From Escherichia coli (GTDB lineage: Bacteria; Pseudomonadota; Gammaproteobacteria; Enterobacterales; Enterobacteriaceae): a stretch of 64,000 nucleotides of DNA. The stretch lies in assembly GCF_030013205.1 (NCBI RefSeq), contig NZ_CP122648.1; one strand, written 5' to 3'. Of this stretch, positions 25,301 through 28,300 are shown piece by piece. Position numbers: made by a program. Position 1 is the stretch's first letter. Each line of letters starts with the position of its first letter.

Positions 25301-28300
25301 TTTTCGGTAGTCCGGCTGGTCCAGTCCAGATAATGCACGCCGATATCTGCAAAACCGCCTTTAAATTCTGCATGAGATACTGCTGGTATCGCCAATACAG
25401 AAGAAAGTGTCAGAGTAAAAAGATGTTTTTTCATAGCATAATTCCCTATGCCGATCGTTATTAGTTGATTGCTTAATAAAAAGGTTGATTAAAAGCGGCA
25501 TATTGTTAATGCAATGGAAAGGAGAGTACCAATACAGTTTTTTCCGCCTATTAATAGTGAAAAAATATAAATATATCGATATCGAATAACTATCGGATAC
25601 ATGAAAAAAGTGTATTGGTATGAGGTAGGGCAATCTCGTTATAAAAAGGCGTTAGATTCCACCCTACAAAAAAAGGATATATATGTATCAGGCTCAGTTT
25701 TCTCATAACCCACTGTATTGCGTAGATATTATCAAGACTTATAAACCTGATTTCACGCCACGAGTGGCCTTTATTTTAGGTTCCGGGCTGGGCGCGCTGG
25801 CCGATCAGATTGAGAACGCGGTCGCAATTTCCTACGAAAAGCTGCCTGGGTTCCCGGTAAGTACCGTACATGGCCATGCGGGTGAGCTGGTGCTGGGTTA
25901 TCTCCAGGGGGTGCCAGTGGCGTGCATGAAAGGTCGCGGACATTTCTACGAAGGTCGTGGGATGACCATCATGACGGATGCAATCCGTACCTTTAAGTTG
26001 CTGGGCTGCGAGTTGCTGTTCAGCACCAATGCGGCTGGCTCACTGCGTCCTGAAGTGGGGGCCGGCAGTCTGGTCGCATTGAAAGATCACATCAACACCA
26101 TGCCGGGAACGCCGATGGTGGGTCTTAATGATGAACGTTTTGGTGAGCGCTTCTTCTCGCTGGCGAATGCCTACGATGCGGAATACCGCGCACTATTACA
26201 AAAAGTGGCGAAAGAAGAGGGGTTCCCTCTGACGGAGGGCGTGTTCGTCTCGTATCCGGGTCCGAATTTCGAGACTGCGGCGGAAATTCGCATGATGCAA
26301 ATTATTGGTGGGGATGTTGTTGGTATGTCTGTGGTGCCTGAGGTTATTTCTGCTCGCCATTGCGAACTTAAAGTCGTTGCGGTCTCTGCGATTACCAACA
26401 TGGCGGAAGGTCTGAGTGACGTGAAGCTTTCTCATGCCCAAACGCTGGCAGCAGCGGAACTCTCAAAGCAAAACTTTATTAATCTTATTTGCGGCTTTCT
26501 GCGCAAAATTGCCTGAGTAAAACAACAATAAACGGCCTCACTGAGTGAGGCCATATGATGCGACAAGGAAACGATTATGAGCATCGCTTTGCGCTTAAAG
26601 GTAATGTCCTTTTTGCAATATTTTATCTGGGGGAGCTGGCTGGTTACCCTCGGTTCTTACATGATTAATACCCTTCATTTCACCGGCGCTAATGTTGGCA
26701 TGGTTTACAGTTCCAAAGGGATCGCCGCGATTATTATGCCTGGTATAATGGGGATCATCGCAGACAAATGGCTGCGTGCAGAACGTGCATACATGCTGTG
26801 TCACCTGGTGTGTGCGGGCGTACTTTTTTATGCGGCATCCGTAACTGATCCGGATATGATGTTTTGGGTGATGTTAGTCAATGCGATGGCGTTTATGCCG
26901 ACTATTGCGTTATCGAACAGCGTCTCTTATTCCTGTCTTGCCCAGGCAGGGCTTGACCCGGTGACCGCTTTCCCGCCCATTCGCGTTTTTGGTACGGTGG
27001 GGTTCATTGTCGCCATGTGGGCAGTAAGCCTGCTGCATCTGGAATTGAGTAGTCTGCAGCTGTATATCGCGTCCGGTGCGTCATTGCTGCTGTCGGCTTA
27101 TGCGCTGACTTTGCCGAAGATTCCGGTTGCGGAGAAAAAAGCGACAACATCGCTTGCCAGCAAGCTGGGTCTGGATGCCTTCGTGCTGTTTAAAAATCCA
27201 CGCATGGCTATCTTTTTCCTCTTCGCCATGATGCTGGGCGCGGTGCTGCAAATTACCAACGTTTTTGGCAACCCGTTCCTGCATGATTTCGCCCGTAATC
27301 CTGAGTTTGCTGACAGTTTTGTGGTGAAATATCCCTCCATTTTACTGTCAGTTTCACAGATGGCAGAAGTGGGCTTTATACTGACTATCCCATTCTTTTT
27401 AAAGCGATTTGGCATTAAAACCGTCATGCTGATGAGTATGGTGGCCTGGACGCTGCGCTTTGGCTTCTTCGCCTATGGCGATCCGTCAACAACCGGATTT
27501 ATTTTGCTGCTGCTGTCGATGATTGTTTATGGCTGTGCATTCGATTTCTTCAATATTTCTGGTTCGGTATTTGTCGAACAGGAAGTTGATTCCAGCATTC
27601 GTGCCAGCGCGCAGGGCCTTTTTATGACGATGGTAAATGGCGTCGGCGCATGGGTTGGCTCGATTCTGAGCGGTATGGCAGTGGATTACTTCTCGGTGGA
27701 TGGCGTAAAAGATTGGCATACCATTTGGCTGATGTTTGCAGGGTATGCTCTTTTCCTCGCAGTGATATTTTTCTTTGGGTTTAAATATAACCATGACCCT
27801 GAAAAGATAACGCATCGTTCAGTTACACATTAAAAGGATTCGCAGCTCTGTTCCTTGGGGCTGCTTTTATGATAAAGGTTAATTAGTGAAAGATATTTTA
27901 TTTTCTTCTGGCGTTGGTTTTGGCATTGGTGCTTTGTTTACAATCGTGCGCTTGCCTATTCCTGTACCAAATGTATTACCGGGTATATTATCCATTGTGT
28001 TTATGTATGTCGGATATCTGGTGGTGAAATACTTTATGCCATGATAATTTAATACGATGTATTTATTATATGGAGCACTTAATTATGGAACGCGTATACA
28101 GAACAGATCTTAAGTTGCTCCGTTATTTTCTTGCCGTAGCGGAAGAGTTGCATTTTGGTCGCGCAGCAGCGCGTTTAAATATGTCTCAGCCTCCGCTCAG
28201 CATTCATATTAAAGAGCTGGAAAATCAACTCGGCACGCAGCTTTTTATTCGCCATTCGCGCAGCGTCGTACTGACACACGCGGGCAAAATCTTGATGGAA

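What the first reader, a model, noticed from the sequence alone, without database searches (positions are those of the whole stretch)
27886..28044. Unannotated 52-codon hydrophobic ORF between xapB and xapR
A GTG-initiated ORF with a plausible AAGG ribosome-binding site encodes a glycine-zipper-like membrane peptide (GVGFGIGALF...). Small XapX-like proteins are, as I recall, annotated next to xanthosine operons in some genomes. It was not in the supplied ORF list and could be a third product of the xap locus.
Basis: partly seen in the sequence, partly recalled or inferred. Interest (0 to 1): 0.4.

Follow-up and report, generated by a model that had tools for sequence, protein, structure and literature searches.

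The report
xapX: conserved small membrane protein gene
The 52-codon ORF between xapB and xapR is a real gene under purifying selection for a two-helix membrane protein of the named but unstudied XapX/DUF1427 family; most E. coli genome records annotate it, the K-12 reference does not, and its relatives repeatedly sit inside nucleoside-breakdown gene clusters.

Summary
The window (E. coli) has a GTG-initiated 52-codon ORF at 27886-28044 (+), with AAGG 7 nt upstream.

- **Family.** It scores 64 bits against NCBIfam TIGR03510 'XapX domain' (cut-off 27.8).
- **Annotation.** RefSeq calls it 'DUF1427 family protein' (WP_000651752.1) in 59 of 60 sampled E. coli genomes that carry the locus. NC_000913.3 (K-12 MG1655) encodes the identical protein but has no feature there.
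- **Conservation.** Eleven other Enterobacterales loci keep xapA-xapB-xapX-xapR with a 52-codon ORF. dN/dS is 0-0.15, like xapA/B/R. The other frames are not conserved.
- **Structure.** AlphaFold2 predicts a helical hairpin (pLDDT 91) with an invariant LPxPxP loop.
- **Dispensability.** Klebsiella, Citrobacter freundii and Enterobacter xap loci lack xapX, and about a quarter of E. coli genomes lack the whole block.
- **New here.** XapX-type genes also lie in non-orthologous nucleoside clusters: nupC-X-deoCABD in Aeromonas, Vibrio and Salinivibrio, and add-X-deoD in marine Gammaproteobacteria.

I conclude that XapX is a low-abundance inner-membrane accessory of nucleoside uptake and phosphorolysis. 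The mechanism is inferred, not shown. As a feature it is already known. Interest is modest.

The parts
25683..26516 (+). xapA, xanthosine phosphorylase (PNP_UDP_1 fold); first gene of the module
   Evidence: 100% match to the annotated xapA of NZ_CP028192.1; ORF listed.
26577..27833 (+). xapB, xanthosine:H+ symporter (NHS/MFS family)
   Evidence: Annotated as xapB. Homologues carry Pfam Nuc_H_symport.
27842..27864 (+). Terminator-like hairpin directly after the xapB stop codon, followed by TTTTAT (27865-27870)
   Evidence: Found by the consensus scan. The RNA fold gives -13.1 kcal/mol here and -15.2 in K-12, with changes on both arms of the stem between the two strains. Analogous hairpins occur in Phytobacter, Citrobacter and Salmonella, and also in species that lack xapX. 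Function as a terminator is not shown.
27869..27886 (+). Five-codon mini-ORF (ATG ATA AAG GTT AAT TAG) whose stop codon overlaps the xapX GTG
   Evidence: The same layout, an ATG at -17 with a stop overlapping the start codon, occurs in Escherichia, Pseudocitrobacter, Salmonella and Phytobacter only. Its significance is unknown.
27875..27878 (+). Shine-Dalgarno-like AAGG, 7 nt upstream of the start codon
   Evidence: Read directly from the sequence. Purine-rich SD-like strings sit at the same place in all orthologues.
27886..28044 (+). xapX: 52-codon gene for a two-helix membrane hairpin (helix 2-20, loop R22-L-P-I-P-V-P-N-V-L31, helix 31-50)
   Evidence: ORF. TIGR03510 XapX at 64.2 bits. PGAP CDS WP_000651752.1. 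Synteny and the 52-codon length are conserved. dN/dS is 0-0.15. AF2 pLDDT is 90.8.
28041..28069 (+). Promoter-like site (ATGATA-17-TATTAT) overlapping the xapX stop codon; candidate xapR promoter
   Evidence: Consensus scan only, 9 of 12 matches. The segment between xapX and xapR is homologous to the xapB-xapR spacer of species without xapX. Not verified experimentally.
28085..28969 (+). xapR, LysR-type activator of xapAB
   Evidence: Annotated. Reported as constitutively transcribed and not autoregulated, as cited in PMC7205307.

Best explanation
The ORF is xapX, a genuine protein-coding gene. Its product is a 52-residue inner-membrane protein made of two transmembrane helices joined by a rigid proline-rich turn, [K/R]-L-P-x-P-x-P. 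It is the founding member of the XapX domain family (TIGR03510; the N-terminal half of Pfam DUF1427).

Shown here: the frame is under purifying selection as strong as on xapA, xapB and xapR. The gene travels with the mobile xap block. It can be absent from otherwise intact xap loci. Relatives in other orders are embedded in non-orthologous nucleoside-catabolism clusters.

Inferred: XapX is an optional accessory component of purine-nucleoside utilisation that acts in the membrane through protein-protein contacts. Its small-residue helix faces would pack against a partner or against itself. Its positively charged LPxPxP loop probably faces the cytoplasm. Through these it would assist or tune the coupling of nucleoside uptake (XapB; NupC in other taxa) with phosphorolysis (XapA; DeoD elsewhere). 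It is not an enzyme or a DNA-binding regulator.

Also inferred: in E. coli it is made at a low level by read-through of the hairpin after xapB on the xanthosine-induced xapAB transcript. The GTG start and weak SD fit low expression. The xapR promoter lies downstream of it.
For: **Gene reality**
- ORF and SD are present.
- The identical protein is encoded in K-12, with only 2 synonymous differences.
- All 11 other Enterobacterales loci keep xapA-xapB-xapX-xapR with a 52-codon ORF.
- dN/dS is 0-0.15, against 0.01-0.12 for the neighbouring genes.
- Binomial P is 9e-8 to 3e-5 in five independent pairs, and the codon-position pattern is 21/10/46.
- The alternative frames are not conserved.

**Family**
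- TIGR03510 scores 64.2 bits against a cut-off of 27.8.
- All 47 diverse relatives hit TIGR03510, and 39 of 47 hit positions 1-49 of PF07235.
- PGAP names the ORF in 59 of 60 sampled genomes.

**Fold and topology**
- AF2 gives a hairpin with pLDDT 90.8.
- In 84 short family members the loop carries a mean of 0.94 K+R and 0.04 D+E. The N-terminus is net acidic.

**Link to nucleoside metabolism**
- deoB<-xapA-xapB-xapX-deoC-xapR in Budviciaceae.
- tatD-nupC-X-deoC-deoA-deoB(-deoD) in Aeromonas, Vibrio atypicus and Salinivibrio.
- X-deoCABD, add-X-deoD and GntR-type regulator-X-deoD in marine metagenomes.
- nupC-yjdM-X...deoB-deoD in an uncultured Enterobacterales genome.
- 13 of 26 non-redundant clusters from the metagenome scan have deo or nupC genes within 5 kb.
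- XapB and NupC are unrelated transporter families. XapA and DeoD belong to different PNP subfamilies. Shared ancestry of the neighbourhood therefore does not explain the association.

**Expression route**
- Hairpin after xapB and promoter-like site after xapX.
- Species without xapX keep both elements with nothing in between.
Against: - No direct evidence of translation or of a phenotype was found. One E. coli Ribo-seq sORF supplement and one acid-stress Ribo-seq data set do not list the ORF. The xap operon is off without xanthosine, so these absences carry little weight.
- The hairpin with a T-run between xapB and xapX could stop most transcripts, and no promoter for xapX was identified.
- xapX is missing from intact xap loci of Klebsiella huaxiensis, Citrobacter freundii and Enterobacter. 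XapB and XapA therefore work without it.
- Many family members have unrelated neighbours: FMN reductase, argS with a hydrolase, CvpA, pyruvate kinase, CsoR, and phage-like contigs. The domain is not intrinsically nucleoside-specific.
- The metagenome scan was seeded with the Aeromonas-type sequence, so the 13 of 26 figure is biased towards that subfamily.
- Topology and partners are inferred from charge counts and gene order only.
Confidence: 0.6

Rival explanations
1. XapX forms a small homo-oligomeric pore or channel (stacked glycine-zipper hairpins) that moves a small solute across the inner membrane. In the nucleoside clusters this could be efflux of the free purine base left after phosphorolysis.
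For: - Small-residue motifs occur in both helices across the family: G11xxxG15 in helix 1 and GxxGxxGxxxG in helix 2 of most members.
- The family appears in many unrelated contexts, as expected of a generic membrane device.
- The most constant neighbour is a purine nucleoside phosphorylase, not a transporter; the add-X-deoD loci have no transporter nearby.
- There are weak sub-threshold Pfam similarities to the LydA holin and to SpoVAB.
Against: - The Enterobacterales XapX has lost two of the helix-2 glycines (S36 and F39 in place of G).
- No polar or charged pore-lining residues are present.
- The Pfam similarities are below the gathering score and may reflect composition only.
- No solved or predicted structural relative was found to support an oligomer.
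Confidence: 0.15
2. XapX is a membrane tether for the soluble phosphorylase. Its cytoplasmic LPxPxP loop docks XapA (DeoD in other taxa) at the membrane next to the transporter, so that uptake is coupled directly to phosphorolysis.
For: - A PNP_UDP_1-fold phosphorylase (xapA or deoD) is present in nearly all nucleoside-linked arrangements, with or without a transporter.
- The invariant proline-rich loop carries the one conserved positive charge, so it probably faces the cytoplasm.
- Other family members directly follow or overlap genes for soluble enzymes: FMN reductase with a 4-nt overlap, adenosine deaminase and a phosphoribosyltransferase.
- From my own memory, not checked here: 1970s membrane-vesicle work reported membrane-associated nucleoside phosphorylase activity in enteric bacteria.
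Against: - The loop is only about 10 residues long and mostly hydrophobic, which makes a very small docking surface.
- The Salinivibrio locus has no deoD within 5 kb.
- xap loci without xapX exist.
- There are no interaction data.
Confidence: 0.12
3. The peptide itself is unimportant. The ORF is a leader or upstream ORF, or the spacer is regulatory DNA or RNA, and what matters is its translation or structure in tuning xapR expression or xapB mRNA stability.
For: - The ORF lies directly upstream of xapR, and its stop codon overlaps a promoter-like site.
- A hairpin and a mini-ORF that overlaps the start codon precede it.
- A gSELEX study lists an RpoN-holoenzyme binding peak in the xapB-xapR spacer (PMC8743547).
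Against: - Selection acts on the amino-acid sequence: dN/dS is 0-0.15 and 24 residues are invariant across nine representative orthologue sequences.
- The protein belongs to a family of more than 1000 sequences found far from any xapR.
- xapR works without the ORF in Klebsiella, C. freundii and Enterobacter.
- There is no Rfam match in the spacer and no sigma-54 motif.
Confidence: 0.04
4. XapX is a toxic small hydrophobic peptide (type I toxin-like or holin-like) carried by a mobile block.
For: - It is short and very hydrophobic.
- The xap block is an insertion/deletion polymorphism in E. coli and is horizontally transferred (PMC2395238).
- Some family members sit on phage-like contigs.
- There are weak holin-family similarities.
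Against: - No antisense RNA or known sRNA lies at the locus.
- There are no PADLOC or PHROGs hits.
- The gene is stably syntenic inside catabolic operons across orders.
- It has two helices with a conserved turn, unlike the single-helix type I toxins.
Confidence: 0.03
5. It is a chance ORF in a non-coding spacer.
For: It is short, uses a GTG start and a weak SD, is not in the curated K-12 annotation, and has no published expression evidence.
Against: All the conservation, selection and family evidence above.
Confidence: 0.02

Closest known systems
XapX domain family (NCBIfam TIGR03510) / Pfam DUF1427 (PF07235)
   Same: The ORF is a full-length match to the 49-position XapX model, with the same length, hairpin and LPxPxP turn. 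The family takes its name from this locus. RefSeq already labels this exact protein 'DUF1427 family protein'.
   Different: The E. coli protein does not reach Pfam's PF07235 threshold. That model has 84 positions, and XapX-type proteins cover only positions 1-49. No function is attached to either family. Only two papers in the searched library mention either name, and both do so in passing.
Small inner-membrane proteins that bind and modulate transporters in E. coli (e.g. AcrZ-AcrB, KdpF-KdpABC, MgtS-MgtA, CydX-CydAB; from general knowledge)
   Same: Size of about 50 aa or less, membrane location, and a gene placed next to or inside the operon of the membrane protein it serves. Such proteins are often missed by annotation.
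   Different: Those proteins have a single transmembrane helix and are mostly narrow in distribution. XapX has two helices with a conserved turn, belongs to a broad family, and is also found next to soluble enzymes. No binding to XapB has been shown.
xapABR xanthosine regulon as described (Seeger et al. 1995, cited in PMC7205307 and PMC2395238)
   Same: Same locus. xapA and xapB are induced by XapR with xanthosine. xapR is constitutive. The cluster is sporadically distributed and co-transferred.
   Different: The literature I could read describes three genes. The 252-nt xapB-xapR spacer holds a fourth conserved gene that is absent from the K-12 reference record.
F-type ATPase subunit c (two-helix hairpin with a glycine-rich helix 1 and a basic cytoplasmic loop; from general knowledge)
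   Same: A hairpin of two transmembrane helices, a GxGxGxG-like helix 1, and a short loop with a conserved basic residue followed by proline.
   Different: XapX has no carboxylate in helix 2, shows no sequence or fold-search match, and has no ATPase genes nearby. This is a resemblance of shape only.

Membership tests
XapX domain (NCBIfam TIGR03510) | Score at or above the curated cut-off of the family HMM over the full 49-position model | tested here: met
   64.2 bits against a cut-off of 27.8, E = 5.8e-18, residues 4-50 on model positions 2-48.
XapX domain (NCBIfam TIGR03510) | Protein of about 50 residues made of two hydrophobic helices joined by the conserved [K/R]LPxPxP turn | tested here: met
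   AF2 gives helix 2-20, loop 21-30 and helix 31-50, pLDDT 90.8. P24, P26 and P28 are invariant or nearly so across 47 relatives. 83 of 97 motif-bearing members have K or R before LPxPxP.
XapX domain (NCBIfam TIGR03510) | Position between xapB and xapR, the origin of the name | tested here: met
Pfam DUF1427 (PF07235) | Score at or above Pfam's gathering threshold (27.1 bits) on the 84-position model | tested here: not met
   No hit for the E. coli protein even at E <= 1. Relatives match only positions 1-49 and mostly score 16-27.9 bits. PGAP nevertheless uses the name 'DUF1427 family protein'.
Small-protein accessory subunits of transporters (AcrZ/KdpF/MgtS type) | Physical association with the transporter and an effect on its activity or stability | not testable with these tools
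   Only gene adjacency is available: xapB-xapX (52 nt apart) and nupC-X (127-417 nt apart).
Small-protein accessory subunits of transporters (AcrZ/KdpF/MgtS type) | Co-occurrence with the partner transporter | tested here: inconclusive
   xapX is always found with xapB in Enterobacterales, but xapB occurs without xapX. The add-X-deoD loci have no adjacent transporter.
Type I toxin / holin-like small hydrophobic peptides | Cognate antisense RNA or a lysis-cassette context; match to a toxin or holin family model | tested here: not met
   No Rfam family at the locus. No PHROGs or PADLOC hit. Holin-family Pfam hits exist only for distant relatives and fall below threshold.
Leader peptide / regulatory uORF | Conservation of position and length but not of amino-acid sequence; dependence of the downstream gene on it | tested here: not met
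   The amino-acid sequence is conserved, with dN/dS 0-0.15. xapR exists without the ORF in three genera.

The most novel reading that the evidence does not exclude
XapX-domain hairpins are a previously unrecognised membrane component of bacterial purine-nucleoside utilisation. They would organise transporter and phosphorylase into a membrane-bound unit by tethering XapA or DeoD through the LPxPxP loop, or alternatively release the purine base. This would give a molecular basis for uptake-coupled phosphorolysis. More broadly, the family would be a general anchor that brings soluble enzymes such as FMN reductase, adenosine deaminase and PNP to the membrane.
Probability: 0.12. Interest if true: 0.6.

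Novelty: already known. Interest (0 to 1): 0.3.

Why it matters
E. coli K-12 is the reference organism for gene inventories. A gene under clear purifying selection inside the textbook xap locus is still missing from its reference record, although automated annotation finds it elsewhere. Adding it is a concrete correction.

The family is large: 1217 proteins matched in one profile search of a single subfamily. It has no known function and no solved structure. Its members recur in nucleoside-catabolism clusters built from non-orthologous transporters and phosphorylases. That pattern gives a specific, cheap hypothesis to test in E. coli, Vibrio or Aeromonas. If XapX modulates nucleoside uptake or phosphorolysis, models of the xap genetic switch and of nucleoside scavenging in gut and marine bacteria would need a fourth component.

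Tried and rejected
1. **Pfam scan of the E. coli protein.** No hit. This is explained by the longer DUF1427 model.
2. **Ribosome-profiling evidence.**
   - The Stringer et al. 2021 supplement has no entry for the coordinates, the peptide or the xap genes.
   - The Weaver et al. 2019 supplements are not held.
   - The acid-stress Ribo-seq supplements have nothing.
   - No paper combines xapR with ribosome profiling.
   - All of this is uninformative, because xap is uninduced in those conditions.
3. **The original xap papers** (Seeger 1995; Jorgensen & Dandanell 1999) could not be read. The mapped promoters and transcripts are therefore unknown to me.
4. **Structural relatives.**
   - Foldseek against PDB found none.
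   - An HMM search against PDB sequences found none.
   - I judged further fold searches on a 52-residue hairpin uninformative and did not run them.
5. **PHROGs and PADLOC.** No hits. A defence or phage-lysis role was rejected.
6. **Rfam on the spacer and on the whole window.** Nothing at the locus.
7. **Sigma-54 motif search** in 27780-28100, prompted by a published gSELEX peak. None found.
8. **Viral-contig scan** with the broad alignment failed because the alignment was too divergent. It was not repeated.
9. **The genome-contig scan** used narrow peptide patterns and missed Salmonella and E. coli itself. Its 10 xap loci are therefore a lower bound.
10. **SpoVAB and LydA holin similarities** were considered as remote homology. 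I left them as unproven because all scores are below the gathering threshold.
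Full report
**1. What is in the sequence**

The window is E. coli. Bases 27600-28300 are 100% identical to NZ_CP028192.1 and match 4086 of 5426 complete E. coli genomes. The local order is yfeN(-), xapA 25683-26516, xapB 26577-27833, a 252-nt spacer, xapR 28085-28969, tRNA-Lys and three tRNA-Val (-), then gltX.

Inside the spacer, at 27886-28044 (+), lies a GTG-initiated 52-codon ORF. It encodes MKDILFSSGVGFGIGALFTIVRLPIPVPNVLPGILSIVFMYVGYLVVKYFMP. AAGG sits 7 nt upstream.

**2. Is it annotated?**

PGAP annotates this ORF as 'DUF1427 family protein' (WP_000651752.1) in the best-matching genome. The same label appears in 59 of 60 records sampled evenly across the 4078 that carry the spacer. 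These include PGAP-annotated K-12 derivatives and BW25113.

The exact sequence is on at least 1000 public contigs and is also called 'XapX domain' (UniRef J7QTV3_ECOLX). The curated reference NC_000913.3 has no feature between xapR (b2405) and xapB (b2406). Yet the ORF is there at 2522518-2522676 (-) and encodes the identical protein. It differs from the window at two synonymous sites. So the ORF is unannotated only in the K-12 reference.

**3. Is it a real gene?**

A scan of one genome per species found 10 Enterobacterales loci: Escherichia sp., Pseudocitrobacter, Entomohabitans, Phytobacter, two Chimaeribacter, Citrobacter sp., two Limnobaculum and Pragia. A Salmonella Typhimurium record adds an eleventh.
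- All have the order xapA-xapB-xapX-xapR.
- Every orthologue has exactly 52 codons, an ATG or GTG start and an SD-like purine run.
- Protein identity to E. coli is 69-98% for XapX. For XapB it is 77-99.5% and for XapR 64-96%.
- Pairwise dN/dS for xapX is 0-0.15 where it can be estimated. The neighbouring genes give 0.01-0.12.
- In five phylogenetically independent pairs, non-synonymous changes are under-represented with binomial P between 9e-8 and 3e-5.
- Variable alignment columns fall 21/10/46 on codon positions 1/2/3.
- The overlapping +2 frame has stops in 8 of 12 sequences.
- The antisense frame never acquires a stop because it shares wobble positions with the sense frame. It lacks a conserved start codon and its peptide varies where the sense peptide does not.
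- No Rfam family matches the spacer.

A chance ORF and a pure leader-peptide reading are therefore rejected.

**4. Family and fold**

The protein scores 64.2 bits (E = 5.8e-18) on NCBIfam TIGR03510 'XapX domain', whose cut-off is 27.8. Pfam-A reports nothing for it.

The reason is that PF07235 (DUF1427) is an 84-position model. XapX-type proteins cover only positions 1-49 of it, usually just under the 27.1-bit threshold.

An exhaustive profile search of 1.84 billion cluster representatives found 77 at E <= 1e-3. Most are 45-95 residues long. All 47 that I aligned hit TIGR03510. The family signature is:
- a small-residue motif in helix 1 (G11xxxG15);
- [K/R]-L-P-x-P-x-P;
- a glycine-rich helix 2 ending in G43.

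AlphaFold2 predicts helix 2-20, loop 21-30 and helix 31-50, with mean pLDDT 90.8. No PDB relative appears by fold search or by sequence profile.

In 84 short family members the loop carries on average 0.94 K+R and 0.04 D+E. The N-terminus is net acidic (0.37 K+R, 0.74 D+E). By the positive-inside rule the loop probably faces the cytoplasm. This is an inference.

**5. Distribution**

xapX is not obligatory for a xap locus. In Klebsiella huaxiensis, Citrobacter freundii and an Enterobacter the xapB-xapR gap is only 67-100 nt, with no remnant of the gene. XapB in those species is 77-88% identical to the E. coli protein.

About a quarter of E. coli genomes lack the entire yfeN-xapA-xapB-xapX-xapR block. 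They carry a FlxA-like gene instead. This fits the published view that the xap cluster is repeatedly transferred (PMC2395238).

A few E. coli alleles appear to be disrupted. Two variant proteins end in the same foreign tail, at different points of xapX. I recognise that tail from memory as an IS1 end.

**6. Context of relatives: the main new result**

XapX-type genes recur in nucleoside-catabolism clusters built from different parts.

| Arrangement | Where found |
|---|---|
| deoB<-xapA-xapB-xapX-deoC-xapR, with deoC starting about 20 nt after xapX | Budviciaceae |
| tatD-nupC-X-deoC-deoA-deoB(-deoD) | Aeromonas, Vibrio atypicus, Salinivibrio |
| X-deoC-deoA-deoB-deoD | three metagenome loci |
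| adenosine deaminase (add)-X-deoD | many marine contigs |
| GntR-type regulator-X-deoD | L085; X-deoD also in L087 |
| nupC-yjdM-X...deoB-deoD | uncultured Enterobacterales |

The proteins of the add-X-deoD subfamily carry source names from Thalassotalea, Colwellia, Psychrosphaera, Endozoicomonas, Vibrio, Photobacterium and others.

Of 26 clusters (>= 85% identity) recovered from the metagenome scan, 13 have deo or nupC genes within 5 kb. Several of the others are on contigs too short to judge. XapB (an NHS-type MFS transporter) and NupC (a CNT-family transporter) are unrelated. XapA and DeoD are different subfamilies of one fold. The association is therefore not simply inherited synteny.

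There are limits to this result. The scan was seeded with the Aeromonas-type sequence. More distant members also sit next to unrelated genes:
- FMN reductase (twice, once with a 4-nt overlap);
- argS and a hydrolase;
- CvpA;
- pyruvate kinase;
- CsoR and RlmH;
- phage-like contigs with RecA, MazG or Pyr_excise.

PHROGs and PADLOC give nothing.

**7. How it is probably expressed**

Directly after the xapB stop codon there is a 9-bp hairpin (27842-27864). It folds at -13.1 kcal/mol here and at -15.2 in K-12, with changes on both arms of the stem between the two strains. TTTTAT follows it. Comparable hairpins follow xapB in most species, with or without xapX.

A promoter-like site (ATGATA-17-TATTAT, 28041-28069) overlaps the xapX stop codon. 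The short xapX-xapR segment is homologous to the xapB-xapR spacer of species that lack xapX. xapX therefore lies between the xapAB terminator-like element and the likely xapR promoter.

The simplest route is low-level read-through from the xanthosine-induced xapA promoter. This is consistent with the GTG start and weak SD, but it is not shown. The original transcript-mapping papers could not be read.

**8. Mechanism**

*Shown:* a conserved, selected, membrane-type hairpin protein that co-localises with nucleoside uptake and phosphorolysis genes in several independent arrangements and is dispensable for a functional xap locus.

*Inferred (best guess):* an optional accessory that works by helix-helix and loop contacts with the uptake and phosphorolysis machinery.

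*Rivals:* a homo-oligomeric channel, for example for the released purine base; a membrane tether for the phosphorylase; a regulatory uORF; a toxin- or holin-like peptide; a chance ORF. The last three are poorly supported or refuted (see rival explanations).

**9. Comparison with what is known, and verdict**

The ORF is the name-giving member of a curated family. It is routinely annotated by PGAP, so as a feature it is already known.

Nothing is published on its function. 'XapX' and 'DUF1427' occur in only two papers of the searched library, and both mention them in passing.

What this work adds:
- a codon-level demonstration that the gene is real;
- the observation that the K-12 reference record omits it;
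- the fact that it is optional within xap loci;
- the cross-order association with nucleoside catabolism.

Interest is modest at 0.3.

Noticed in passing
L052:5218-5285, L055:5239-5306, L056:4503-4582, L064:5222-5298, L076:5190-5272 and 13 more loci (alignment A6): A conserved 45-85 nt element lies about 40 nt upstream of deoD in the add-X-deoD loci: TCAGTAAAACAYCCTTGATAGC, then a hairpin of variable length and sequence, then GGCTWGAAACTTACTG. All copies fold into the same layout: an outer stem CAGUAA/UUACUG, an inner stem (U)AGC/GCU(A), and a variable apical hairpin. Rfam 15 has no match at the gathering score or at E <= 10. This is a candidate unclassified structured RNA or riboswitch in front of a purine nucleoside phosphorylase gene. 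The conserved stems are invariant, so there is no covariation support yet.
   Followed up: partly
window 27869-27886: A five-codon mini-ORF (MIKVN*) starts at the end of the terminator T-run, and its stop codon overlaps the xapX GTG. The same layout (ATG at -17, stop overlapping the start as TAGTG, GTGA or ATGA) occurs in Escherichia, Pseudocitrobacter, Salmonella and Phytobacter, but not in the other orthologous loci.
   Followed up: partly
window 24670-28969 (yfeN-xapA-xapB-xapX-xapR): The whole block is a presence/absence polymorphism in E. coli. About a quarter of complete genomes, including B-strain derivatives, have a FlxA-like gene between yfeR and the tRNA cluster instead.
   Followed up: partly
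window 36441-36564 and 62223-62346: There are two identical full-length matches to Rfam STnc490, an Hfq-binding sRNA (146 bits each). From memory this RNA is associated with IS200, which would mean two IS200 copies in the window. The nearest annotated genome shows an IS200/IS605 transposase pseudogene just past gltX.
   Followed up: no
P0019 and P0034 (E. coli xapX variants): Two variant proteins break off after residue 40 and residue 28 and continue with the same tail, GNDSNLLIVFYVQIMPDDFVMQLHRF. From memory this is the translated end of IS1. If so, IS1 has inserted at two different sites of xapX in some strains.
   Followed up: no
window 27834-28084 (K-12 xapB-xapR spacer): A genomic SELEX study lists an RpoN-holoenzyme binding peak in the xapB-xapR spacer, and with NtrC also one between xapA and xapB (PMC8743547). 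I found no GG-N10-GC sigma-54 motif in 27780-28100.
   Followed up: partly
L024:3065-3220, L025:2405-2620: XapX-domain genes also occur on phage-like contigs with densely packed small genes. One carries RecA and MazG-like genes; the other carries a T4 endonuclease V-type Pyr_excise gene. None matches a PHROGs family.
   Followed up: partly
L016:1091-1812, L017:119-840, L048:1596-2518: A second recurring context pairs an NADPH-dependent FMN reductase gene with a XapX-domain gene directly downstream. In L016 and L017 the two overlap by 4 nt, which suggests translational coupling.
   Followed up: partly
L010:5180-5949: The deoC gene that follows xapX in Limnobaculum allomyrinae is split between two reading frames near 5500. 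It is intact in L. eriocheiris (L012). This is either a frameshift or a sequencing error.
   Followed up: no
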